Source: a bacterium
GTDB taxonomy: Bacteria; SAR324; NAC60-12
Length of the DNA stretch: 64,000 nt
NCBI GenBank assembly: GCA_965233585.1
Contig: CBDDTI010000747.1
Location: 1-64,000, forward strand
Direction of reading: 5' to 3'
Below the pieces are notes generated by a model. That model was given only the letters and a program-made list of their open reading frames with translations. It was not told where the DNA came from and did not search any database. Of this stretch, positions 16,623 through 28,411 are shown piece by piece. The position numbers and the translations under genes were made by a program. Every line of letters begins with the position of its first letter. Position 1 is the stretch's first letter.

Positions 16623-16840
16623 ATTAATAGACTCAAATGTTAGGAAGGTTAGGGGGACAATCCAAATGATTGTATTCTCAATCAATCAACAGGCTATCAT
16701 CTCTCAAAATGAAACGAAAATCAAACCAAATCCATTAAATCTAATGCTTGATTTGAGACAATCCAGAACAAAAACAAATCAAAAAAATGAATTGAAAACA
16801 GGAAAAGAAAGAAAGAAGGAAAACGTCTGCTCACTTTTGA

Positions 16841-18039
16841 AAAGAAAATCTTTCAAAGAAAATTGAACAATTCAAAATGATCAGATTTCTGCTTCGTGTG
16901 TCTCCAATGTCAAGTCACAGGAATGAACCTAGATGACATAAGCAGGCATGTTTTGAGTCAGGACGAAAGATTCTGGATTTGTTGTAGAGACAGCCCCGTG
17001 ACTGATTCAATCAAGTCTTTGTCTAATCCTTGAGCCAGCATGTTTTGAGCAATTTGAATTTTTTCTTGCTCAATGCCTTTTTCAATTCCTTTTTCCATTC
17101 CTTCTTGTCGTCCTTGTTCAATGCCCTCTTGTTTTCCTTTTTCAATTCCTTCTTCAATGCCTTCTTGTCGTCCTTGTTCAATGCCCTCTTGTTTTCCTTT
17201 TTCCATTCCTTCTTGTCGTCCTTGTTTGATGCCTCTTTCTATGCCTTGTTTGACGCCTTTTTCCATTCCTTTTCGGAAGTTGAGTTGTTCAGCTCCTTTG
17301 ATGACTGCTACAAACTCCTGTCTTTTATAGACCATCTCCAGCTCTTCAGGAGAAAGCCCTGCTTGGTCAACGACATGTAAGGCTTGTTGGATTGTAGGAT
17401 TCAGGACTTCTGGAATGTCTTGTAGCTTTTCTGCATGCTTGATGAAGTAAATCCATTCTTCTTGCAATGCCTCCAATTCGTTTAAAGATTTTTGAAACTT
17501 AGGAAGTTCTACAAAGATGAGTTCTATGTCATCAGAGTATTGGGTCAGAGTCTTTTTGTCTAAAAGTTTAAAAGAATTGATGATGTTGTCATTGTCTTCA
17601 AACATGACGAAGTCTAGGACATTCAAAGCGATGACAGGGTTCAGCAGGTGATATTGGTCTCCTTTGACCAGTTGCATAGAATAACTTTTACAAGCATTGT
17701 AGAGGATTCGTTTCTCAAAACCATCGTGGTTGACAATCTGCATCTCAATCAACACTTGTTCTCCTGTGTCAAGTCTTGCTTTCACGTCAACGAAGGTGAT
17801 TTTCATGCCTTGCAGTAAAGGGGGATTGTAAGGGTCTTGAATGGTCAGGTCTTGCACTTTCTGTTGATGAGGGAACTCTATCATCGCATTGAGAAAGCTG
17901 ATAAGCAGCGATTTGTTCTTCTCATCTCCAAACAGCATCTTGAACGCATAGTCTGTCTTGATGTCTAAAAATCTCATGGCAGTTTTTTCATAGTAGTTTT
18001 ATTGATTCAGTCAAAGAAAATCTTTCAAAGAAAATTGAA
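16841..18039. repeat. 27-bp direct repeat flanking the Rpn gene
   Basis: AAAGAAAATCTTTCAAAGAAAATTGAA at 16841-16867 and 18013-18039; a 1-mismatch copy at 20633-20659. Confidence 0.9.
16958..17977 (-). CDS. Rpn-family recombination-promoting nuclease / PD-(D/E)XK putative transposase
   Basis: DIKTDYAFKMLFG, VDVKA...IEMQ, FVELPKF, C-terminal (E/Q/K)G(I/M/K/R)x tetrapeptide repeats and IAQNML...TGLS tail. Confidence 0.93.
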   Translation of the reverse strand: MRFLDIKTDYAFKMLFGDEKNKSLLISFLNAMIEFPHQQKVQDLTIQDPYNPPLLQGMKITFVDVKARLDTGEQVLIEMQIVNHDGFEKRILYNACKSYSMQLVKGDQYHLLNPVIALNVLDFVMFEDNDNIINSFKLLDKKTLTQYSDDIELIFVELPKFQKSLNELEALQEEWIYFIKHAEKLQDIPEVLNPTIQQALHVVDQAGLSPEELEMVYKRQEFVAVIKGAEQLNFRKGMEKGVKQGIERGIKQGRQEGMEKGKQEGIEQGRQEGIEEGIEKGKQEGIEQGRQEGMEKGIEKGIEQEKIQIAQNMLAQGLDKDLIESVTGLSLQQIQNLSS

Positions 18040-18068
18040 AATGAAGAAATGAGCAGCGAAGACAGAGG

Positions 18069-18830
18069 TTAACTTAAACTCTGGTTTGGGGAAGTGATGC
18101 GGAGTTGTCCTGATTCTTCTTCTAAAATGTAAATCCCTAAAGACTTCGCTTTTTCTAACACTTTGGGTTGAATCACTTCTGCTGCAATACCCAGACGAAT
18201 GTTGCCTTTGTATCTGGGATAAGCCTGTTCTAAAAAATCCCGCTGCTTGAAAAGCTGGTCAAAGGTTTTCATCTTCGGATTGTGCTTCACTTCTATCAAA
18301 AACAGCTGCGTGTCATTACGCATGATGATGTCGCATTCTGTCTGAATAACACCTTCCTTCATAATCTGCATTCCTTTTTCTACATGGTCATAATGAATGC
18401 CATCTACTACCTCCATATTAGAAAGACTTTCTGCATAACGTTTTTCATACTTCTCGCTTTCAACGTCTGTGTAACGTCCTATTTGTTTGGCTAAATCAGA
18501 CAACACCTGATCCATCTTTGCCTCCCGTTCTTTACGTTCTTGCTTCCATCTTTCAAAATCTGCATCACGTCTGGCTTGCAATTCTGCTTCTTGCTTTTCA
18601 CGCTCTGCTTCTCGTTTCTCACGTTCTGCTTGTGCCTCTGCTTCTCGTTTTTCACGCTCTGCCTCTAGCTCTTTCTTCCACTCCTCAAACTCTGCTTCTC
18701 GTTGGGCTTTTGCTTCGGCTTGCTCTTTGGCAAAGGCTTTTTTCCACGCTGCAAACTCTGCGTCTCGTTGGATTTGTGCTTTGGCACTTTCTTCCAAGAT
18801 TCTTTCTATTCTATCTAAACGTTCTGACAT
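18069..18830 (-). CDS. Coiled-coil + PD-(D/E)XK nuclease-like protein, array copy 1 (253 aa)
   Basis: AGGAG RBS before ATG 18830. E/K/R/A-rich coiled coil, then ECDIIMRN...LIEVK motif (DUF3782-like). Confidence 0.8.
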   Translation of the reverse strand: MSERLDRIERILEESAKAQIQRDAEFAAWKKAFAKEQAEAKAQREAEFEEWKKELEAEREKREAEAQAEREKREAEREKQEAELQARRDADFERWKQERKEREAKMDQVLSDLAKQIGRYTDVESEKYEKRYAESLSNMEVVDGIHYDHVEKGMQIMKEGVIQTECDIIMRNDTQLFLIEVKHNPKMKTFDQLFKQRDFLEQAYPRYKGNIRLGIAAEVIQPKVLEKAKSLGIYILEEESGQLRITSPNQSLS

Positions 18831-18892
18831 CACCACTCCTTGACAATGAATGCACAACAATCAAAAAACTCCAGTCTAACAGAGGCTTCTTA

Positions 18893-19652
18893 GGCATTGT
18901 TAAGTAATAAGTGATAGCTGATTATTCCGTTTTGCCATGAACAAAAGAACAGAATATTGTAATGCTTTAAGAGACTTGCTGTAACATTTGGTTTTCCTTC
19001 TCATTCTTGCCAAGAAATGTCTCAAGAGAGAATTATACCCTTCTATCGTGTATGTTTCTGCCTTGGAACATGTATGAATTTCTTTGGGAATGACTTGTTT
19101 GTAAGCCTTGCAGTGATCAGTCATCACCTGAAGAGGTTTTGTTTCCTTGACCTTGTCCCATAAATGCCTACAGGCTTTTGAGTCTCTGTTTCCAAGCACA
19201 CAATTGATAAATTGCTTCCCACATCTATCAACAGCAATCCAGAGCCAGCAGTAGTTTTTTTTGACTGGATGTAGGTGTGCATTTCATCAATTTCCATAAT
19301 TTCAATGTCTGTGTCCTTTCTTAATGCCTTGAGCTGTTCGCCAAAACTACAGACCCAATTATAAACTGAAACATGAGAACAATTCAGCAAACGACCGATT
19401 GACCTGAAACCAAGACCCTCCAAATACAACTCTAATGCTCTTCTTTTGATCTGTGGTGAGATTTGACCACGATAGGACTTGGTATATTGATAGTTGCAGG
19501 CATTGCAACGCCTCCTCGGTTTACCATATAAAAAACCATTCTTAACCGTCTTCTCACTTTCACATCTAGGACACAACTTCATTGCTACACCATGACTATC
19601 AATTCAATTAAATGAACTTAATATCGCATATCACTTATAGTTTAACAATACC
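18893..19652 (-). mobile_element. IS1-family element copy B2 (760 bp)
   Basis: Same IRs and ORFs (19124-19582, 18900-19199) as 2124-2883, with only a few SNPs seen. No target duplication. Confidence 0.95.
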
Positions 19653-19795
19653 AAAAAAAGAATGAGTCAGCAGAGAGGCTAACCTAAAACTAAAAATGAG
19701 GAAGGAAAAAGTCTGCTCACTCTTTTCAAAGAACATCAAAGAACGAATTGAAAACTAAAAAAGAAAGTAACGAAAAATGAGCAGCGAAGACAAAG

Positions 19796-20389
19796 TTAAC
19801 TTAAACTCTGGTTTGGGGAAGTGATGCGGAGTTGTCCTGATTCTTCTTCTAAGATGTAAATCCCTAAAGACTTCGCTTTTTCTAACACTTTGGGTTGAAT
19901 CACTTCTGCAGCAATGCCCAGACGAATGTTGCCTTTGTATCTGGGATAAGCCTGTTCTAAAAAATCCCGCTGCTTGAAAAGCTGGTCAAAGGTTTTCATC
20001 TTCGGATGGTGCTTCACTTCTATCAAAAACAACTGGGTGTCATTACGCATGATGATGTCGCATTCTGTCTGAATAACACCTTCCTTCATAATCTGCATTC
20101 CTTTTTCTACATGGTCATAATGAATGCCATCTACCATCTCCATATTAGAAAGACTTTCTGCATAACGTTTTTCATACTTCTCGCTTTCAACGTCTGTGTA
20201 ACGTCCTATTTGTTTGGCTAAATCAGACAACACCTGATCCATCTTTGCCTCCCGTTCTTTACGTTCTTGCTTCCATCTTTCAAAATCTGCATCACGTCTG
20301 GCTTGCAATTCTGCTTCTTGCTTTTCACGCTCTGCTTGGGCTTTGATGCTGTCTTCTAAAATCTTTTCTATGCGGTCTAATCTGTCCAT
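19796..20389 (-). CDS. Coiled-coil + PD-(D/E)XK nuclease-like protein, array copy 2 (197 aa)
   Basis: AAGGTG RBS, MDRLDRIEKILED start; C-terminal domain nearly identical to copy 1. Confidence 0.8.
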   Translation of the reverse strand: MDRLDRIEKILEDSIKAQAEREKQEAELQARRDADFERWKQERKEREAKMDQVLSDLAKQIGRYTDVESEKYEKRYAESLSNMEMVDGIHYDHVEKGMQIMKEGVIQTECDIIMRNDTQLFLIEVKHHPKMKTFDQLFKQRDFLEQAYPRYKGNIRLGIAAEVIQPKVLEKAKSLGIYILEEESGQLRITSPNQSLS

Positions 20390-20858
20390 TTTCAAACACC
20401 TTTAAAAGTTAGATTTGAATAAGATCGGGTTAAGAGAGAATCTAAATAACTAGAATCCTCAAAACGTCAAAAATAACTATAAAACAAATTACAAAAAAAG
20501 ACATTCTCAAATTGCATTTGAAATAATCAAAAAACAGAAGAAAACTAAAGAATGAATCAAAAAATGAATTGACAGACTAGAAAGAACAGAAAAAGAAAGA
20601 AGGAAGGAAGGAAAGAGCTGACTCGCTCTTGAAAAGAAAATCTTGCAAAGAAAATTGAAAACAGGAAAGGGACAGAAAAAGAAAGAAGGAAGGAAAGAGC
20701 TGACTCGCTCTTTCAGAAAAAAAAGAATGAGTCAGCAGAGAGGCTAACCTAAAACTAAAAATGAGGAAGGAAAAAGTCTGCTCACTCTTTTCAAAGAACA
20801 TCAAAGAACGAATTGAAAACTAAAAAAGAAAGTAACGAAAAATGAGCAGAGGGAAGGA

Positions 20859-21506
20859 TTAGTCTAAGCTCTGGTTAGGGGAAGTGATGCGGAGTTCTCC
20901 CGATTCTTCTTCTAAAATGTAAATCCCTAAAGACTTTGCTTTTTCTAACACTTTGGGTTGAATCACTTCTGCGGCAATGCCAAGACGAATGTTGCCTTTG
21001 TATCTGGGATAAGCCTGCTCTAAAAAATCCCGCTGCTTGAAAAGCTGATTAAAAGTTTTCATCTTCGGATGGTGCTTCACCTCTATCAAAAACAGCTGCG
21101 TGTCATTACGCATGATGATGTCGCACTCCACCTGACCTAAATCCTTGTTCGCAATACACATTCCCTCTTCTACATTGTCATAATGAATCCCATCTACTGT
21201 CTCCATTCTGGTTAGACTTTCTGCATAACGTTTCTCATACTTCTGACTTTCAATGTCTGTGTAACTGCCTAGTTGCTTGGCTAGATTAGACATCACCTCA
21301 TCCAGCTTTGCTTCCCGCTTTTCACGTTCTTTCTTCCATCTTTCAAAGTCTGCATCTCGTTTGGCTTGCGCTTCTGCTTCTTTTGCCTGCCACTTAGCAA
21401 AGTCTGCATCTCGTTTAGCTTGTGCTTCTGCTTCTCGTTTTTCACGCTCGGCTTGTGCCTTCGCATTGTCTTCTAAAATCTTTTCTATGCGGTCTAATCT
21501 GTCCAT
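20859..21506 (-). CDS. Coiled-coil + PD-(D/E)XK nuclease-like protein, array copy 3 (215 aa)
   Basis: GAGGTG RBS; same architecture, ECD...IEVK motif. Confidence 0.8.
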   Translation of the reverse strand: MDRLDRIEKILEDNAKAQAEREKREAEAQAKRDADFAKWQAKEAEAQAKRDADFERWKKEREKREAKLDEVMSNLAKQLGSYTDIESQKYEKRYAESLTRMETVDGIHYDNVEEGMCIANKDLGQVECDIIMRNDTQLFLIEVKHHPKMKTFNQLFKQRDFLEQAYPRYKGNIRLGIAAEVIQPKVLEKAKSLGIYILEEESGELRITSPNQSLD

Positions 21507-21725
21507 TTTCAATCACCTCAAAAGTTAGTTTTGGATAAGAGTAGGTTTAAGAGAGAATCCAAGTTGCTAGAATCCTCACATCCAACACAAAATACGATAA
21601 CTCAAAAATCAACAAAAAGACATTCTTAATTAGGATTTGAAACAATCCAAAACAAAAGAACACCAAAAAACGAATTGAAAACGAACAAGAAAGTCACAAA
21701 AAATGAGAATGGAGAGAGGAAAGGG

Positions 21726-22520
21726 TTAACTTAAACTCTGGTTAGGGGAAGTGATGCGGAGTTCTCCCGATTCTTCTTCTAAAATGTAAATTCCTAAAGA
21801 CCTTGCTTTTTCTAGCACTTTGGGTTGAATCACTTCTGCAGCAATGCCAAGACGAATGTTGCCTTTATATCTGGGATAAGCCTGCTCTAAAAAATCCCGC
21901 TGCTTGAAAAGCTGATTAAAGGTTTTCATCTTCGGATGGTGCTTCACCTCTATCAAAAACAGCTGCGTGTCATTACGCATGATGATGTCGCACTCCACCT
22001 GACCTAAATCCTTGTTCGCAATACACATTCCCTCTTCTACATTGTCATAATGAATCCCATCTACTGTCTCCATTCTGGTTAGACTTTCTGCATAACGTTT
22101 TTCATACTTCTGACTTTCAATGTCTGTGTAATTGCCTATCTGTTTGGCTAAATTAGACATCACCTCATCCAGCTTTGCCTCTCGTTCTTTACGTTCTTTC
22201 TTCCATCTTTCAAAATCGGCATCTCGTTTGGCTTGTGCTTCAGCTTCTCGCTTTTCACGCTCGGCATCTCGCTTTTCACGCTCGGCATCTCGTTTGGCTT
22301 GTGCTTCAGCTTCTCGTTTTTCACGCTCGGCATCTCGCTTTTCACGCTCTGCTTCCCATTTCTCACGTTCTGTTTGTGCTTTAGCTTGTGCTTCAGCTTC
22401 TCGTTTTTCACGTTCTGCTTCTAGCTCTTTTTTCCACGCTGCAAACTCTGCGTCTCGTTGGATTTGTGCTTTGGCACTTTCTTCCAAGATTCTTTCTATT
22501 CTATCTAAACGTTCTGACAT
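21726..22520 (-). CDS. Coiled-coil + PD-(D/E)XK nuclease-like protein, array copy 4 (264 aa)
   Basis: MSERLDRIE start as in copy 1; expanded 21-bp (D/E)AEREKR repeats; C-terminal domain like copy 3. Confidence 0.8.
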   Translation of the reverse strand: MSERLDRIERILEESAKAQIQRDAEFAAWKKELEAEREKREAEAQAKAQTEREKWEAEREKRDAEREKREAEAQAKRDAEREKRDAEREKREAEAQAKRDADFERWKKERKEREAKLDEVMSNLAKQIGNYTDIESQKYEKRYAESLTRMETVDGIHYDNVEEGMCIANKDLGQVECDIIMRNDTQLFLIEVKHHPKMKTFNQLFKQRDFLEQAYPRYKGNIRLGIAAEVIQPKVLEKARSLGIYILEEESGELRITSPNQSLS

Positions 22521-22635
22521 CACCACTCCTTGACAATGAATGCACAACAATCAAAAAACTCTAGTCTAACAGAGGCTTCTTAGAAAAAGAAGACACACCA
22601 AGACCTCAAGACTTCACAAACAAGAGCAAGAAAGC

Positions 22636-22777
22636 AAAAAACCTGCTCACTTCTGAAAAAACAATCAAAAAACTGATTGAAAACTAGAAAGGACAGAAAA
22701 ACAAAGAAAGGAAAAAACCTGCTCACTTCTGAAAAAACAATCAAAAAACTGATTGAAAACTAGAAAGGACAGAAAAA
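22636..22777. repeat. 66-bp perfect direct repeat (76-bp period) in the array spacer
   Basis: AAAAAACCTGCTCACTTCTG...GGACAGAAAAA at 22636-22701 and 22712-22777. Confidence 0.9.
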
Positions 22778-22958
22778 GGAAGAAGGAAGAAAGGAAAGAG
22801 CTGACTCACTCTTTCAGAAAAAAAGAATGAGTCAGCAGAGAGGATAAACTAAAACTAAAAATGAGGAAGGAAAAAGTCTGCTCACTCTTTTCAAAGAACA
22901 TCAAAGAACGAATTGAAAACTAAAAAAGAAAGTAACAAAAAATGAGCAGAGGGAAGGA

Positions 22959-23519
22959 TTAGTCTAAACTCTGGTTTGGGGAAGTGATGCGGAGTTGCCC
23001 TGATTCTTCTTCTAAAATGTAAATCCCTAAAGACCTTGCTTTTTCTAACACTCTCGGATGAATCACTTCTGCTGCAATGCCAAGACGAATGTTGCCTTTG
23101 TATCTGGGATAAATCTGCTCTAAAAAATCCCGCTGCTTGAAAAGCTGGTCAAAGGTTTTCATCTTCGGATTGTGCTTCACTTCTATCAAAAATAGCTGGA
23201 TGTCATTGCGCATGATGATGTCACATTCTGTTTGACCTAAATTCTTGTCAATAATCCACACTCCTTTTTCTACATGGTCATAGTGAACCCCATCTACAGT
23301 CTCCATTTTAGCAAGACTTTCTGCATAACGTTTCTCATACTTCTGACTTTCAATGTCTGTGTAACTGCCTAGTTGCTTGGCTAGATTAGACATCACCTCA
23401 TCCATCTTTGCCTCCCGCTTTTCACGTTCTTTCTTCCATCTTTCAAAATCTGCGTCCCGTTCTGCTTGTGCTTTGGCATTGTCTTCTAAAATCTTTTCTA
23501 TGCGGTCTAATCTGTCCAT
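22959..23519 (-). CDS. Coiled-coil + PD-(D/E)XK nuclease-like protein, array copy 5 (186 aa)
   Basis: Shortest coiled coil; same C-terminal domain with a third variant of the variable patch. Confidence 0.8.
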   Translation of the reverse strand: MDRLDRIEKILEDNAKAQAERDADFERWKKEREKREAKMDEVMSNLAKQLGSYTDIESQKYEKRYAESLAKMETVDGVHYDHVEKGVWIIDKNLGQTECDIIMRNDIQLFLIEVKHNPKMKTFDQLFKQRDFLEQIYPRYKGNIRLGIAAEVIHPRVLEKARSLGIYILEEESGQLRITSPNQSLD

Positions 23520-23733
23520 TTTCAAACACCTTTAAAAGTTAGATTTGAATAAGATCGGGTTAAGAGAGAATCTAAATAACTAGAATCCTCACATCCAACA
23601 CAAAATACAATAACTCAAAAATCAATAAAAAGACATTCTCAAATTGCATTTGAAACAATCCAGAACAAAAAAACCAAAAAACGAATTGAAAACAGAAAAG
23701 GGACAGAAAAAGAAAGAAGGAAGGAAGGAAAGA

Positions 23734-23844
23734 GCTGACTCACTCTTTCAGAAAAAAAAGAATGAGTCAGCAGAGAGGATCACCTAAAACTAAAAATAGG
23801 TAAGGAAAAAACGCCTACTCACTCCTTAAAAAAGAATGAGCAGG
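23734..23844 (-). terminator. Two stacked terminator-like hairpins downstream of the large lipoprotein gene
   Basis: Minus strand: CCUGCUCAUUCUUU..AAGGAGUGAGUAGG+CGUUUUU (23814-23844) and GCUGACUCAUUCUUU..AAAGAGUGAGUCAGC+UCUUUCC (23734-23771). Copies also at 22800-22836 and 20699-20736. Confidence 0.7.
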
Positions 23845-23899
23845 GAAAAGAGACAAGAGAAAAGGACAGCAAGGCTATCCTTGACTTTTTGGGAACAGA

Positions 23900-26800
23900 C
23901 TAGAAATTTCCGTTAGGCGTAGAATTTGTTGCTGCAGCATCATCTGTTGCTTGATTACCTGCTGAATCATAAACCCCAGACTTAATTTTAGCAGCAGAGA
24001 AAGTATCAGAACCACTAAGTGTTGCTAGTGTCCCAACACCACCACCAACAACGCTAGCAATAGGTAAGGTTAAGATTTTCTTGTCAGAATTAAAAGAACC
24101 AGCAGTAACTGTAAATGATTCGTTTGCATCAGAGTATCCAGTAGCACCTTTAAAAGTTGCTATTTCATTACCATTTGTTGCTGATGTTCCATGATAGATA
24201 GTAAATAAGCCAGAAGTTTGAGTATAGGTAATGTAATAATCAGCTTCTGCCGTACCGCCTACATCGCCATCAAAGTCAACATCTATAGCTTCAGGGAAAG
24301 TGATTGTTATCTTATCACCAACCTCAATTTTATAAGCTGTATTAGCAGAAGTCTTGCCAGCTATAGCAATAGAGGAGATGACAGGTTTAGTGTTATCGAA
24401 AGTGACTGCTAATTTAGAACTAGCAACTGAAACATTACCTGCTGCATCTTTGAGGAACAAATACAAATCTTTGCTAGCTCCAGCACTTGGAAGTAAGCCT
24501 GTATGACCTGAAAGATCAACATCAGTTTTATTCAAGTTTGTTGCTGAAGTGACTGAAACCCAACCGCTATTGCCACTAGATTTACTTGCATCTTTTGCTG
24601 GCGCAGGCGGTTTAGTCCCTCCTGTGGCAACTGAAATAGCATAGTAAGCCGTTACTCCAACTGTATCTGTTCCTGTGATGGTAAAATTATCACCAGCAGC
24701 CTTAATCAAAGCTGTCCCTGTTTGAGAACCAACTTTGATGGCTGGACTTGCTGGTGCAGTACTGTCTGGATTTGGCAGAGTGAACTTGGCATCAGTTCCA
24801 GTATGACTCGCAGCATTGCCTGCAACATCTTTGACCTTGTTTTGTTTAGGAGTCAAAGCATTGCCTGCTTTTATATCTGCCAAACTTCCACCAGACACTA
24901 AAGTTATGACCCACTCATCATCAGCTGCTCCACTTCCTGTTTTGCTGTCAATCGTAGAATTTCCTAAATTGGGTGTTCCACTCGCAGCAGTGCCTTTAAC
25001 AATGGCAAAGAAAGTTGATGCTGTTTTGTTAGAACTGCTCCAACCATCTAAAGCTACTGTCTCATCAAATTTCAGTGTAATCGTGTCATTAGCATTATAA
25101 GCACTGTCAGTGTTTGTATCTGTAAAGACAACAGGATTAGAAGAGTCTGCTTTGGGAGCAGTCTTGTCTGAAGCTGGCAAAGTAAACTTAGCATCATTGC
25201 CAGTATGATTCGCAGCATTGCCTGCAGCATCTTTGACCTTACCTGATTTAGGAGTCAAAGTATTGCCTGCTTTAATGTCTGCAAGACCTCCACTATTCAC
25301 TAAAGTTATGACCCACTCATCATCAGCTGCTCCACTTCCTGTTTTGCTATCAATGGTAGAAGCACCTAAATTGGGCGTTCCACTTGCTGCAGAACCTTGA
25401 GCAATGGCAAAGAAAGTTGAGGCTGCTTTGTTAGAACTGCTCCAACCATCTAAAACTACTGGCTCATCAAATTTCAGTGTAATCGTGTCATCAGCATTAT
25501 AAGCACTGTCAGAGTCGTTATCTGCAAAGACAACAGGATTAGAAGAGTCTGCTTTGGGAGCAGTCGTGTCTGAAGCAGGAGCTTGCCCGCCAGCAGTTGC
25601 GATTTTTTTGGAGACGATTTGGCTTGCCATTTTGTTTGGAGTAGCCGCTTTGTCTTTGATGACGTTTGCTTGGAACTTGACGAAGACATACTTGCCTGCC
25701 ACTAAAGCAGTTTGGTTAGGCAAAGTGATGGTCAGTTGAGTTTGGTCATTTTTTGCACTCCAAGCGATTTTTTTGGCAGTCAGTTTTGTGCCTGCAGAAC
25801 TCCCTGCTGTGCCATCTACGCTTAACTCTGCAATCAAATTGCTGACTTCGGTGATTGAGGTGTCTATCACTTCACTAAATTCCACCACAACTTTTCGTCC
25901 ATTGCCTGAAAATCTTGGGCTCACGTCTGCAAGTTCTGCAGTGGGTTTGGTTGTGTCTTTGACACCAGAGACAGTGATAGCATTGTCTGTTGCATCAGCC
26001 ACAGCTGTTTTGGCTTCGATGAATCCTGCAGCGGCTGCTAGGTTGTAAGTTGTATCATCTGAAGACTTGGTTCCATTTGTATCTAAAACGGCATCAATCG
26101 CTGTTTTGGCAGTGCCTTTAAAAGTCACAGTGGCTTTGGTCGCACTATCAGCACCAATGGTAGTTGTATTATCACCAGAACCAGCAGCTAGGGTCACATC
26201 AGAACCCTTCCCTTGAACTTTTAGCTTAGTGATGTCCCAGCCATCTGTTGCGGTTGCCAAATCTTGCCCTGTGATGACTAACTTGCCAGTAGAGGCATCG
26301 TAAGTGGCACTTTCAATGACAGGGTCGCCTGCGGCAACAACCTTAATGGTGTAAGTGATGGTGACTTTGGAGTCTCTGTGTTTCTTACTTGAAAGAGTGA
26401 CGTCCACGATGGCAGTGTTTGCGTCTGTGAGCTTGGCGTGGTCAAAAGTGATGGCACTGCTAGCGACTAAATAGCCATCGTCGCCTGTTCCTGGAGTTGA
26501 ATTTTTCTCAACTTTTGAGACTGTTGGATTCACTAGTGCAGACATACCTGTTGCAGTTTTTGCTGAGGCTAAGATGTCGGCTGTGCTGATGGTGAGACCT
26601 GTTGAAGTGACAGTGACGCTTTCAGCTTTGGTAGCATCTGCTACTTTCGCTCCTTTGTGAGCTGTGTTGGAACATTGGATGTCAGAGATTTTTCCGCTTG
26701 AACTGACTTTGAGACAAAGGTTTCCTGCAGCAATGTAGTCATCGTGGCTTGAACTGTCCTTGGTGTATGTTTTCCAAGTGAGACCACCATCGGTTGAATA

Positions 26801-28411
26801 TTCATAAGTGTAGCCTGATTTTTGACCATCAAAAGTGATTTTTCCATCGTCTCCCACACTGATTTTAGAAGGTGCAGTGTAACCGTCGTCTTCTGTCACT
26901 TTGGTTTCTTTTTTGTCAATCTGTTTTGCATAAACAACCCAGTCAGAAGCTAGGTATTTGCCTTCAGAGGCTTTGACACGGACGCCAAGTTGGTTGGCTT
27001 GCACTTGAGCATCACCAAAATTATAAGGTGCTGTACAATCTTCAATTTTGTCAGCAGTCGCACTTGAGCCTGCTTTGGTACATTCATACTTTGCACCTGT
27101 TACCATGGAGAATGAAAGTTCTCTTGCCACTTTGTCAATGTTATCGTCAGCAATGGCATTAGGTTTGTCCATTTTGGGAAGTGCCTGCTTGGCAACAGTG
27201 ATTTTGGCACTTTTGGCTGCATCAGACGCCAAATAAGCTTTGGTGGCTTTGGTGCGGACACTGAGTTCTTTGTCTTTAATTTCTGCGAGGTCTTTGACAA
27301 CATCATTGCTTTGGCAGTCAAACCAAGACTCTCCACCTTCAAGCTGGCACTCATAATAGCCGGGTGCATCTGCTCCAGTAGGTTTTGGTTTGTCAGCATT
27401 TGTAATCGTGATGACACCATTTGCGACTGCGACTGATTTAGGTGCAGTGGCTTTTGCAGTCACGTCTGCATTAGGCTCCACAGATTTTGCTGGTTTGATA
27501 GACAGAGTGATTGGATAAGTTTTTTTAATTGAATCAATGGCAGCGTTGGTATAAGTGGCTGTCACTAACGTAGAACACTTCCCAACAGCAAGCTTGGAGG
27601 CTGTGGCGAACTTCCCTTTGGCATTAGCTGTGTCTTCAATCGTGAAACAACCATTGTTGGCTGGGACGTAAGTTGCAGCCAAGGTGAACCCTTGTACATC
27701 TACGGTAGAAGACAACGTAAACCCTTTGAATTGTTCTGCAGCAACAGCATGCTTGTTAGCAACGATGGTGCTGAACAGATGCGTTCGGCTCTCTTTAGCA
27801 GTAATCAATCGCTTATTCTTTTTAGGATTGTCCGTTTGAAGTGCAGCTTTGACGACAACCCGAGTGACTTCTTCGTTTTGGGCAAATTCATCTGGATCAA
27901 CATTGAAGTCAATCTTATTGATTTCAGCAGGGGCGTCTTTGACATGTTCCAAATTGATTCCGTTGGAGGGGTCTCCGTCTGCATCAAGGGTTTGAACAAA
28001 GCGTGCAAAGTTTTCTACAGCATCAGTGATTTGTTCACCATCTTCTACAAAGATGTCAGCAGGGCTGAGGATTTTGTCTGCCCCAGCCTTGCCTAATTCT
28101 GTTTCAGCAGGGACTTGGAATTTGGCAATCTCCACTCCACCGAGCGAGAACGCCACGTCTTTGCCTGAAAAGTATTTAAACTTTCCTTCTTTGTCAGTCG
28201 TGCCAGACTTGCTAGCAGACTTATAATCCACACCTGCCACAGCACTATCCACGAAGTATCCCACTTTCGCTTCTGCTTCTGCAGGTTGATCTCCAGCGAC
28301 AGCTTCCTTCTTTTCGGAAGTGCTACTATCGTTGTTATTAGCACATGACAGCACCATCGCTGACGTCAAACCGAAAGCCGCAATGTATGCAAATTTTTTA
28401 AGCATGTTCAT
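23900..28411 (-). CDS. Large surface lipoprotein / adhesin with Ig-like repeats (1503 aa)
   Basis: AAGGAG RBS, lipobox VLSC, adhesin-type GYFVDSAVAGVDY...TDKEGKF and LDADGDPSNGI segments, repeated DTT(K/A)P Ig-like modules, A/T/S/G/D/K-rich composition. Confidence 0.88.
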   Translation of the reverse strand: MNMLKKFAYIAAFGLTSAMVLSCANNNDSSTSEKKEAVAGDQPAEAEAKVGYFVDSAVAGVDYKSASKSGTTDKEGKFKYFSGKDVAFSLGGVEIAKFQVPAETELGKAGADKILSPADIFVEDGEQITDAVENFARFVQTLDADGDPSNGINLEHVKDAPAEINKIDFNVDPDEFAQNEEVTRVVVKAALQTDNPKKNKRLITAKESRTHLFSTIVANKHAVAAEQFKGFTLSSTVDVQGFTLAATYVPANNGCFTIEDTANAKGKFATASKLAVGKCSTLVTATYTNAAIDSIKKTYPITLSIKPAKSVEPNADVTAKATAPKSVAVANGVITITNADKPKPTGADAPGYYECQLEGGESWFDCQSNDVVKDLAEIKDKELSVRTKATKAYLASDAAKSAKITVAKQALPKMDKPNAIADDNIDKVARELSFSMVTGAKYECTKAGSSATADKIEDCTAPYNFGDAQVQANQLGVRVKASEGKYLASDWVVYAKQIDKKETKVTEDDGYTAPSKISVGDDGKITFDGQKSGYTYEYSTDGGLTWKTYTKDSSSHDDYIAAGNLCLKVSSSGKISDIQCSNTAHKGAKVADATKAESVTVTSTGLTISTADILASAKTATGMSALVNPTVSKVEKNSTPGTGDDGYLVASSAITFDHAKLTDANTAIVDVTLSSKKHRDSKVTITYTIKVVAAGDPVIESATYDASTGKLVITGQDLATATDGWDITKLKVQGKGSDVTLAAGSGDNTTTIGADSATKATVTFKGTAKTAIDAVLDTNGTKSSDDTTYNLAAAAGFIEAKTAVADATDNAITVSGVKDTTKPTAELADVSPRFSGNGRKVVVEFSEVIDTSITEVSNLIAELSVDGTAGSSAGTKLTAKKIAWSAKNDQTQLTITLPNQTALVAGKYVFVKFQANVIKDKAATPNKMASQIVSKKIATAGGQAPASDTTAPKADSSNPVVFADNDSDSAYNADDTITLKFDEPVVLDGWSSSNKAASTFFAIAQGSAASGTPNLGASTIDSKTGSGAADDEWVITLVNSGGLADIKAGNTLTPKSGKVKDAAGNAANHTGNDAKFTLPASDKTAPKADSSNPVVFTDTNTDSAYNANDTITLKFDETVALDGWSSSNKTASTFFAIVKGTAASGTPNLGNSTIDSKTGSGAADDEWVITLVSGGSLADIKAGNALTPKQNKVKDVAGNAASHTGTDAKFTLPNPDSTAPASPAIKVGSQTGTALIKAAGDNFTITGTDTVGVTAYYAISVATGGTKPPAPAKDASKSSGNSGWVSVTSATNLNKTDVDLSGHTGLLPSAGASKDLYLFLKDAAGNVSVASSKLAVTFDNTKPVISSIAIAGKTSANTAYKIEVGDKITITFPEAIDVDFDGDVGGTAEADYYITYTQTSGLFTIYHGTSATNGNEIATFKGATGYSDANESFTVTAGSFNSDKKILTLPIASVVGGGVGTLATLSGSDTFSAAKIKSGVYDSAGNQATDDAAATNSTPNGNF
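24774..25577 (-). repeat. Intragenic tandem duplication, 2 x 402 bp (134 aa)
   Basis: D(T/K)TAPKADSSNPVVF...DAKFTLP occurs twice, at 25176-25577 and 24774-25175. Confidence 0.92.

What the first reader, a model, noticed from the sequence alone, without database searches (positions are those of the whole stretch)
18069..23519. Five-gene tandem array of mosaic coiled-coil/PD-(D/E)XK nuclease-like proteins with shuffled modules
Seen: five co-oriented intact paralogs (253, 197, 215, 264, 186 aa) whose parts assort independently. N-terminus plus upstream DNA is type A (MSERLDRIER) in copies 1 and 4 and type B (MDRLDRIEK) in copies 2, 3 and 5. The patch just before the putative catalytic Asp is KGMQIMKEGVIQT in 1 and 2, EGMCIANKDLGQV in 3 and 4, and KGVWIIDKNLGQT in 5. 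Other sites split differently: KHN 1,5 vs KHH 2,3,4; KAKS 1,2,3 vs KARS 4,5; tail QSLD 3,5 vs QSLS 1,2,4. Known: D-x(12)-E-x-K (ECD...IEVK) fits the PD-(D/E)XK fold; from memory, the architecture resembles the uncharacterised DUF3782-like proteins. Inference: a recombination-diversified nuclease repertoire (variable coiled-coil sensor or ruler plus variable specificity patch), plausibly anti-phage or toxin-like. Best candidate for an undescribed system here.
Basis: partly seen in the sequence, partly recalled or inferred. Interest (0 to 1): 0.82.

Follow-up and report, generated by a model that had tools for sequence, protein, structure and literature searches.

The report
Stalked nuclease gene array, recombining
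Five neighbouring genes encode predicted DNA-cutting enzymes on rod-like stalks of different length that swap parts by recombination; they belong to a widespread family whose job nobody has tested, and this array offers ready-made pairs for testing what the stalk does.

Summary
The five ORFs and their mosaic pattern are real: no single tree fits all segments. Each encodes a 7/11-residue-repeat stalk running as one helix into a PD-(D/E)XK head with E62/D100/E113/K115; a three-copy model passes as a parallel coiled coil. The array is not a stand-alone system. It is one of four head types of a family with 29 near-complete copies in this genome, 28 different stalks, and promoter-plus-N-cap modules shared between head types. 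The architecture is in print (DUF3782/DUF1626-like, function untested), 1,259 clusters match, and this scan noted similar arrays in another genome (e1-3209258, e1-3209257). The 'variable specificity patch' is not supported: pN/pS 0.85 here, 0.25 and 0 in sister subfamilies. Best guess: a stalk-regulated toxic nuclease that works like Rpn; against this, there is no defence-gene enrichment nearby (6 of 111 vs 7 of 111). New member of a known, uncharacterised family.

The parts
18069..18830 (-). Copy 1, 253 aa: type-A front, stalk 123 residues (N-cap Asp to motif-I Glu), head shared with copy 2
19796..20389 (-). Copy 2, 197 aa: type-B front, stalk 68, head nearly identical to copy 1 (8 differences in 501 nt)
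20859..21506 (-). Copy 3, 215 aa: type-B front, stalk 86, stalk end shared with copy 5, head shared with copy 4
21726..22520 (-). Copy 4, 264 aa: type-A front, stalk 134, head shared with copy 3
22959..23519 (-). Copy 5, 186 aa: type-B front, stalk 57, own hairpin allele; the copy that was modelled
23175..23336 (-). Catalytic set of copy 5: E62 (motif I, on the stalk-continuous helix), D100, E113-x-K115
   Evidence: all four present in 104 of 109 aligned family members; secondary structure
23229..23270 (-). Variable patch of copy 5 (residues 84-97): tip of the beta-hairpin between strands 82-91 and 95-104
18737..18893 (-). Type-A front module of copy 1 (promoter region + N-cap), 99% identical to 22427-22583 of copy 4
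   Evidence: family D10
22427..22583 (-). Type-A front module of copy 4
   Evidence: family D10
18873..18881 (-). Extended -10-like motif 51 nt before the start of copy 1 (same at 22563-22571 for copy 4); found 42-58 nt upstream in 25 of 29 family genes, not in copies 2, 3, 5
   Evidence: a consensus match, function inferred
18893..19652 (-). IS1-family element (760 bp, InsA/InsB), no target-site duplication; 33 near-full copies in the genome
16958..17977 (-). rpn (PF12784) gene directly downstream, co-oriented; its 3' flank (16751-16867) carries the same intergenic repeat as the array
23900..28411 (-). 1503-aa predicted lipoprotein directly upstream, co-oriented
   Evidence: crude lipobox rule
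22800..22836 (-). Intergenic terminator-like hairpin between copies 5 and 4 (a second at 23734-23771 upstream of copy 5)

Best explanation
The array is a local tandem expansion of one head type (W) of a widespread family of stalked PD-(D/E)XK nucleases (DUF3782/DUF8196-like). SHOWN in sequence: each gene is [promoter + N-cap][heptad/hendecad stalk][nuclease head]; unequal crossing-over and gene conversion swap fronts between copies and between head types, change stalk length in steps of 7 and 11 residues, and homogenise heads that stay under purifying selection. MODELLED: the stalk is one helix that ends in the first catalytic Glu, and the chains form a parallel in-register coiled coil. INFERRED, untested: the proteins are conditionally active DNA-cutting toxins that work like Rpn (abortive infection or self-maintaining toxin). 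The stalk is the oligomerisation and control element: it holds the heads inactive until a trigger changes its register or brings heads together, and stalk length/sequence keeps paralogues from cross-assembling or tunes the trigger. The diversified element is the stalk, not the cutting specificity.
For: Fold: best structural matches are NucS/EndoMS (Z 11.2, rmsd 3.0, 110 aligned), Can2/Card1-type nuclease domains (Z 10.7, 5.4, 132; Z 10.6, 3.8, 126) and AF1548 (Z 10.6, 2.5, 106) (same families). E62/D100/E113/K115 kept in 104 of 109 family rows; D and E-x-K kept in 27 of 29 genome copies. Core pN/pS 0.12 (W), 0.10 (A), 0.08 (B). 28 distinct stalks in 29 copies; W stalks differ from the shortest by 11, 29, 66, 77; the 7 B stalks with an MS-type start are all multiples of 7; 127 outside stalks peak at lags 7, 11, 14, 18, 21, 25. 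Helix 2-71 continuous, pLDDT 96. Three-copy model: score 0.58, best of 3 controls 0.00; the mark was reached by 20 of 30 proteins solved as pairs of one chain and 1 of 23 solved as single chains; runs agree in at least 82% of contacts, pLDDT at least 81; contacts i-to-i along residues 3-60. Rpn parallels: patchy, multi-copy, tandem, variable helical repeats that set toxin-antitoxin matching, anti-phage activity (PMC10400941 passages, PMC10400984 whole text). Patchy spread here too: 12 of 71 other genomes of the phylum, 1-14 matches each; 6 of 9 rpn-positive genomes also have it against 6 of 62 rpn-negative (kin not independent); rpn is the next gene downstream at 2 of 18 loci.
Against: No defence-gene enrichment: 6 of 111 neighbours vs 7 of 111 control ORFs hit PADLOC at 1e-20, and 5 of the 6 look generic (three mad3 ATPase-type hits, one DndA/SspA, one ankyrin). 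No cognate antitoxin found: no consistent partner gene, and no family-wide internal start. Other families in the same genome vary in repeat number in the same way (20 CCDC90-like, 11 rpn, 4 coil+TM), so slippage alone may explain the stalks. Some copies are decaying (2 of 29 with catalytic substitutions, 4 fragments). The complex job was outside the tool's calibration (three copies, my own alignment), a dimer was not tested, and coiled coils can pass by likeness to solved ones. No activity, toxicity or expression data.
Confidence: 0.45

Rival explanations
1. Near-neutral or selfish expansion: a nuclease with one ordinary role (or only its own spread) was multiplied by ectopic recombination in plastic, repeat- and IS-rich sites. 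Stalk lengths drift by slippage and only helical phase is selected; the mosaicism is a by-product and there is no repertoire.
For: 9 of 18 loci have an IS1-family ORF within 3 kb (random mean 1.9) and 6 of 18 another multi-copy family (random mean 1.2). The same repeat-number variation occurs in unrelated families of this genome. No defence context. Within-subfamily heads are 83-99% identical. Fragments and mutated copies exist.
Against: 27 of 29 copies keep the catalytic residues with core pN/pS about 0.1 although synonymous sites have diverged to pS 0.2-0.3. Four head types are kept side by side, three of them closest to different outside proteins. No terminal repeats or target duplications define a mobile unit.
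Confidence: 0.33
2. Recombination-promoting helper for surface variation: the nuclease nicks or cuts locally and so drives shuffling of the adjacent variable lipoprotein genes (and of itself).
For: 11 of 18 loci, the window's included, lie directly downstream of a co-oriented gene of a multi-copy lipoprotein-like family or with a lipobox; background 64 of 2077.
Against: Much of the link is co-duplication: upstream 1.4-2.3 kb are 75-86% identical among loci, leaving about four independent links. About 40 genes of these lipoprotein families have no such neighbour, 7 of 30 IS1 copies also sit beside them, and no lipoprotein neighbour was evident by eye in 20 loci from other genomes. A diffusible protein need not be encoded next to its target.
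Confidence: 0.08
3. One reading: a repertoire of nucleases with different target specificities, encoded in the variable patch before the catalytic Asp and reassorted with different sensors.
For: Three patch alleles in five copies; patch pN 0.30 against 0.03 in the core; the patch is a hairpin next to D100, where it could touch DNA (inference).
Against: pN/pS 0.85 does not exceed 1; the same hairpin has pN/pS 0.25 in 11 A copies and 0.0 in 9 B copies; it has the highest entropy of all regions family-wide (2.75 bits). The closest folds include ligand-activated and structure-specific nucleases rather than one class of sequence-specific enzymes.
Confidence: 0.1
4. Assembly chimera: the mosaicism was created by mis-joining near-identical repeats.
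For: No laid contig spans the whole array, so gene order and long-range phasing are untested; the best runs may be the source sample.
Against: Contigs of public runs cross the diagnostic junctions without differences: 18581-18766 (runs X2, X4) links the type-A front to the body shared with copy 2; 20152-20379 (X1) links a type-B front to that body; 23141-23343 (X1) crosses the copy-5 patch (30 letters on the shorter side, one short of the tool's bridging mark). Every stalk is unique, and the same front-swapping occurs between loci hundreds of kb apart.
Confidence: 0.03

Closest known systems
DUF3782 (PF12644) / DUF8196 (PF26618) coiled-coil PD-(D/E)XK proteins (Hartmann et al. 2016, PMC4786415, passages read)
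   Same: N-terminal coiled-coil stalk plus C-terminal PD-(D/E)XK domain; bacterial members lack nonads, as here; nearest ESM Atlas clusters (0.95-0.96) carry these Pfam names in 12-16% of members.
   Different: The five copies do not reach the DUF3782 model; the passages read describe no function, arrays, stalk-length series or module exchange.
DUF1626 / PDDEXK_10 (PF07788, COG5493) (PMC1913061, PMC3424549, passages read)
   Same: Coiled-coil N-terminus, REase-like C-terminal domain, patchy distribution, function unknown; copies 3 and 4 score 17.0 and 15.5 bits.
   Different: Below the 21.2-bit cut-off; motif III Lys is often Thr in DUF1626 but is Lys in 109 of 109 rows here.
Rpn / YhgA-like toxin-antitoxin nucleases (PF12784; PMC10400941 passages, PMC10400984 whole text)
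   Same: PD-(D/E)XK nuclease, patchy and multi-copy, tandem arrays, hypervariable helical repeats in the oligomerisation part; an rpn gene adjoins this array.
   Different: Reverse layout (nuclease N-terminal, 4-residue repeats C-terminal); intragenic antitoxin from an internal start, for which no family-wide counterpart was found here; no PF12784 match.
NucS/EndoMS C-terminal domain; Can2/Card1/Cdn1 nuclease domains; AF1548; XisH (PDB 2vld, 8bao, 7bdv, 6wxw, 1y88, 2okf)
   Same: Head fold, Z 9-11.
   Different: No CARF sensor or NucS N-terminal domain; a bare stalk takes their place. A shared fold shows no function.
CoCoNuTs (PMC11090510, search listing and abstract start only)
   Same: Coiled coils combined with nucleases in a predicted defence role.
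   Different: Those are a branch of McrBC Type IV systems; here the genes are single small ORFs with no such partner seen among neighbours.

Membership tests
PD-(D/E)XK nuclease superfamily | Restriction-endonuclease-like alpha/beta core fold | tested here: met
   (15 chains with Z >= 8; the listed ones are nuclease-fold or uncharacterised entries)
PD-(D/E)XK nuclease superfamily | Motif I Glu, motif II Asp, motif III (D/E)xK | tested here: met
   E62, D100, E113, K115; all five copies, 104 of 109 family rows
PD-(D/E)XK nuclease superfamily | Active-site geometry (distances) and nuclease activity | not testable with these tools
   Model coordinates are not returned; no assay
DUF3782 / DUF8196 stalked PD-(D/E)XK proteins | N-terminal coiled coil joined to a C-terminal PD-(D/E)XK domain | tested here: met
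   definition from PMC4786415
DUF3782 / DUF8196 stalked PD-(D/E)XK proteins | Pfam PF12644 gathering score (24.4 bits) | tested here: not met
   No hit in the five copies at E <= 1; 4 of 13 outside relatives reach 20.7-23.9 bits, all below cut-off
DUF3782 / DUF8196 stalked PD-(D/E)XK proteins | Pfam PF26618 match | tested here: inconclusive
   Not reported (the model may be newer than the library); top Atlas cluster by features carries it in 14% of members
DUF1626 / PDDEXK_10 | Pfam PF07788 gathering score (21.2 bits) | tested here: not met
   17.0 and 15.5 bits for copies 3 and 4; relative P0014 reaches 21.2
Rpn toxin-antitoxin | PF12784 nuclease domain at the N-terminus | tested here: not met
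   only the neighbouring gene matches
Rpn toxin-antitoxin | Intragenic small antitoxin from an internal start | tested here: inconclusive
   Strong SD + ATG 23 codons before E62 in copies 1, 2, 5, absent in 3 and 4; 1 of 15 outside genes has a similar site and Met is not enriched there family-wide; the product would keep the nuclease and lose most of the stalk, the reverse of RpnS
Rpn toxin-antitoxin | Anti-phage activity dependent on the active site | not testable with these tools
   needs phage challenge
CoCoNuT / McrBC Type IV systems | McrB GTPase and McrC partner in the locus | tested here: inconclusive
   None among PADLOC hits of 111 neighbours; no dedicated profile was run
Insertion sequence / transposon | Terminal inverted repeats or target-site duplications around each gene | tested here: not met
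   0 inverted pairs of 25 nt or more in 17900-24000; flanks of 33 hits show no common end, read by eye

The most novel reading that the evidence does not exclude
The 29 genes are a stalk-coded immune repertoire: trimeric coiled-coil stalks of different length and repeat make-up act as sensors (for example by co-assembling with or being re-registered by phage trimeric coiled-coil proteins such as fibres) and fire the nuclease through the helix that carries the first catalytic Glu, while exchange of promoter + N-cap + stalk modules among four old head types generates new sensor-effector pairs. That would assign a function to a family of more than 1,200 clusters and add a combinatorial, length-coded class of abortive-infection nucleases.
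Probability: 0.15. Interest if true: 0.85.

Novelty: new member of a known kind. Interest (0 to 1): 0.42.

Why it matters
The family is large (1,259 clusters at 50% identity), expands in single genomes, and has no tested function in the papers found. This array is close to a natural factorial experiment: same head with different stalks (copies 1/2: 123 vs 68; copies 3/4: 86 vs 134) and same front with different heads (1/4, 2/5). Five short genes can show whether stalk length matters, whether it sets assembly partners as the repeats do in Rpn, and whether the family is anti-phage. The exchange of promoter + N-cap modules between heads only 28-52% identical did not turn up in the searches made. 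If the neutral rival holds, the array is an ordinary paralogue cluster.

Tried and rejected
Word-index homologue search found only the window's own proteins (4 hits among 146 candidates); the profile search then found 1,259 clusters, so the first blank was a sensitivity limit. Pattern scans found no relatives in genome contigs (58 stretches, none confirmed) or viral contigs (39, none confirmed). One outside relative (P0009) as query gave no phage match and 5 plasmid records matching the stalk only; one query is a weak test. Pfam, PADLOC and NCBIfam gave no curated match for 10 family members; PDB sequence search gave one weak Can2 hit (E 0.37). Specificity-patch selection: rejected as a general feature (the IQ-TREE codon runs printed no omega, so only pN/pS counts are used). 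Internal start giving a stalk-less product: seen in copies 1, 2, 5 only, not family-wide; kept as a lead. Stalk-only antitoxin genes: a search with promoter + N-cap DNA found a 23-aa and a 60-aa ORF and two broken copies, no consistent partner. CCDC90-like gene as dedicated partner: next to 4 of 5 type-A loci but in both orientations, and 16 of 20 lie elsewhere. Defence-island context: not enriched (control = 111 of 168 ORFs from 18 hand-picked regions; multi-copy families were left out of both sets). 7a+11b test for subfamily A: does not fit from the shortest stalk and has little power with a free base, so not used; two B genes with MTDEE starts (43, 85) were left out of the B series and are 1 off a multiple of 7 with my anchor. 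Sigma-70 promoter scan: 9 sites against 12.4 expected. Loose ends in run X4 are explained by other repeat copies in the genome; its lack of cover over copy 5 is no evidence. No RNA holder listed. The constrained one-clade tree test did not finish. Supplements of the papers were not consulted and may hold more on family distribution.

Full report
Observation. The five ORFs exist at the stated places and lengths on the minus strand, and the quoted motifs are correct. Over the colinear last 501 nt there are 95 variable and 61 informative sites; 330 of 1830 site pairs are incompatible, and compatible sites cluster along the gene (PHI-like p 0.0002-0.004; 0.009-0.05 with one site per codon). Segment trees conflict: the front needs copies 1+4, the stalk end favours 1+2 and 3+5, and the patch/active-site segment accepts only (1,2),5,(3,4), with the other 14 trees at p < 0.025 (borders chosen after seeing the data). 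Long exact tracts mark the events: 200 nt (1/2), 179 nt (3/4), 135 nt (1/4 fronts), 112 nt (2/5 fronts), 91 nt (3/5). So the mosaicism is real, but it comes in about three blocks plus short tracts. It has no target duplication, whereas several of its 32 near-full siblings show 8-bp duplications; its left flank matches the upstream of copy 4 and its right flank the downstream of copy 3, which suggests an adjacent deletion (inference). A co-oriented rpn gene follows copy 1 and shares the intergenic repeat; a 1503-aa predicted lipoprotein precedes copy 5.

Assembly check. Six public runs hold the stretch or part of it, 4 with half of the words or more, all four from one study. Their contigs cross the diagnostic junctions of copies 1, 2 and 5 without differences, with 30 letters on the shorter side; none spans the array. 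In run X4, a second sample, one contig (18112-18335, depth 11) has the copy-2/4 letters at 18183 and 18189 but copy-1 letters at 18126, 18228, 18281 and 18309. That is what a short conversion tract polymorphic between samples would look like; it rests on one contig.

The protein. AlphaFold2 with 109 sequences gives pLDDT 96: one helix from residue 2 to 71, then an alpha/beta head. The head matches NucS/EndoMS, Can2/Card1-type domains, AF1548 and XisH best (Z 9-11). E62, D100, E113 and K115 are present together in 104 of 109 rows. E62 lies on the stalk helix itself, so a change in the stalk could reach the active site directly (inference). A three-copy job scored 0.58 against a best control of 0.00; the mark was reached by 20 of 30 proteins solved as pairs of one chain and 1 of 23 single chains; runs agree in at least 82% of contacts, pLDDT at least 81; contacts run in register along the stalk. 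The job was outside the calibration (three copies, own alignment), a dimer was not tested, and likeness to solved coiled coils may carry the score.

The array is part of something larger. An iterated profile finds 33 ORFs of the family: 11 of head type A, 9 B, 4 C, 5 W (this array) and 4 fragments, in 18 loci, with a second five-gene array on another contig. Among 28 full-length copies heads are 83-99% identical within and 28-52% between types, yet 108 of 274 cross-type pairs share DNA over the promoter and N-terminus (67-89% identity in the 45 best), and the first 20 residues reach 100% (A/C) and 95% (A/B) identity. Two N-cap types occur in each of A, B and C, which the head tree cannot explain without exchange. 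An extended -10-like motif precedes 25 of 29 genes. In a tree of 59 heads the genome's rows need 4 changes in all bootstrap trees, and A, C and W each pair with a different outside protein (99/95, 98/90, 87/82), so the head types probably predate this genome; the outside rows were found with a profile of these proteins, which biases the sample.

What varies and what is selected. 28 of 29 stalks differ. W stalks are 57, 68, 86, 123, 134 (steps 11, 29, 66, 77); seven B stalks are 56-98 in multiples of 7; C 67, 67, 74; 127 outside stalks show repeat lags 7, 11, 14, 18, 21, 25. This agrees with note e1-3209258 from another genome, which prompted the test. Heads are under purifying selection (core pN/pS 0.12, 0.10, 0.08), and 27 of 29 keep Asp and Glu-x-Lys. 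It looks relaxed or old, not a general specificity switch.

Distribution and context. 1,259 clusters match at E <= 0.001. In the phylum 12 of 71 other genomes carry 1-14 matches; rpn is in 9 of 71, and 6 of these 9 overlap (Fisher p 0.0004, within the family 0.007; kin are not independent). The genome also holds 20 CCDC90-like (weak Pfam match), 11-12 rpn and 4 coil+TM genes with variable repeat numbers. 11 of 18 loci follow a co-oriented lipoprotein-like gene (background 64 of 2077), largely by co-duplication. PADLOC hits are no more frequent near the loci than in control regions (6 of 111 vs 7 of 111).

What is known. Hartmann et al. 2016 (PMC4786415, passages) describe prokaryotic PD-(D/E)XK endonucleases with an N-terminal coiled coil grouped as DUF3782; PMC1913061 and PMC3424549 (passages) list DUF1626/COG5493 as coiled-coil plus nuclease fold, patchy, function unknown. 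The ESM Atlas puts copy 5 next to DUF8196/DUF3782 clusters at 0.95-0.96, though no Pfam cut-off is reached. Searches for DUF3782 (2 papers), DUF8196 (0), paREP15 (0; a recalled label), family accessions (2) and combinations found no functional study; subscription journals and supplements are not covered. Rpn is the best working analogy (PMC10400941 passages; PMC10400984 whole text): repeat number sets toxin-antitoxin matching and one member restricts phages. These genes are not Rpn members, and no RpnS-like product is supported family-wide.

Verdict. Real, recombining array; new member of a known but uncharacterised family; function most likely a stalk-regulated toxic nuclease (0.45), with near-neutral expansion close behind (0.33). 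Interest 0.42: not surprising in kind and already seen by this scan elsewhere, but unusually well suited to test what the family does.

Noticed in passing
G000:C746:88543-93393 (L001): A second five-gene tandem array of the same family (head type A), between a kelch-type lipoprotein-like gene and a CCDC90-like gene; three N-cap types and five different stalks.
   Followed up: partly
G000, 20 loci, e.g. C745:329970-334400: CCDC90-like (DUF1640) membrane-anchored coiled-coil genes, 95-270 aa, nearly all with different stalk lengths and many ATK-type motifs; some in tandem.
   Followed up: partly
G000:C746:73387-75109: Four tandem genes with a constant head, DMKELRE-type repeats of varying number and a C-terminal membrane helix; a similar gene adjoins the stalked nuclease in L008 (genome G009).
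   Followed up: no
G000:C747:729687-731832: Five tandem DUF29-like genes (label recalled, not from a call) with overlapping stops/starts and a variable central helix.
   Followed up: no
window:23403-23416 (and the same site in copies 1 and 2): Strong Shine-Dalgarno + ATG 23 codons before the first catalytic Glu; copies 3 and 4 have CTG there and each has a different synonymous change in the SD. Could give a stalk-less head; not conserved family-wide.
   Followed up: partly
window:18893-19652: IS1 ends 12 bp upstream of the -10-like motif of copy 1 and replaces its -35 region; another IS1 copy ends about 20 bp before a type-B gene at C745:506823. IS ends may alter expression.
   Followed up: no
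window:18183 and 18189: Run X4 carries copy-2/4 letters inside an otherwise copy-1 haplotype: possible gene-conversion polymorphism between samples.
   Followed up: partly
window:16958-17977: rpn gene with many G-x-E-E/K-G tetrad repeats; 11-12 paralogues in the genome with different repeat numbers.
   Followed up: partly
window:23900-28411: 1503-aa predicted lipoprotein with two internal repeats of about 130 aa and no Pfam match above cut-off.
   Followed up: no
window:11041-13736: A 595-aa ORF that reads as a PurD-PurE fusion (by eye, not tested), followed downstream-to-upstream by an N4/N6 DNA methyltransferase (PF01555) with no restriction partner seen beside it.
   Followed up: no
G000 whole file: About 8.1 Mb in 705 contigs has low coding density and many tRNA-like copies (66 Thr-ggt, 32 Arg-tct): non-bacterial DNA binned with the genome.
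   Followed up: partly
P0015: A 487-aa database protein holds two complete stalk + nuclease units in tandem; fusion or gene-calling/assembly artefact not checked.
   Followed up: no
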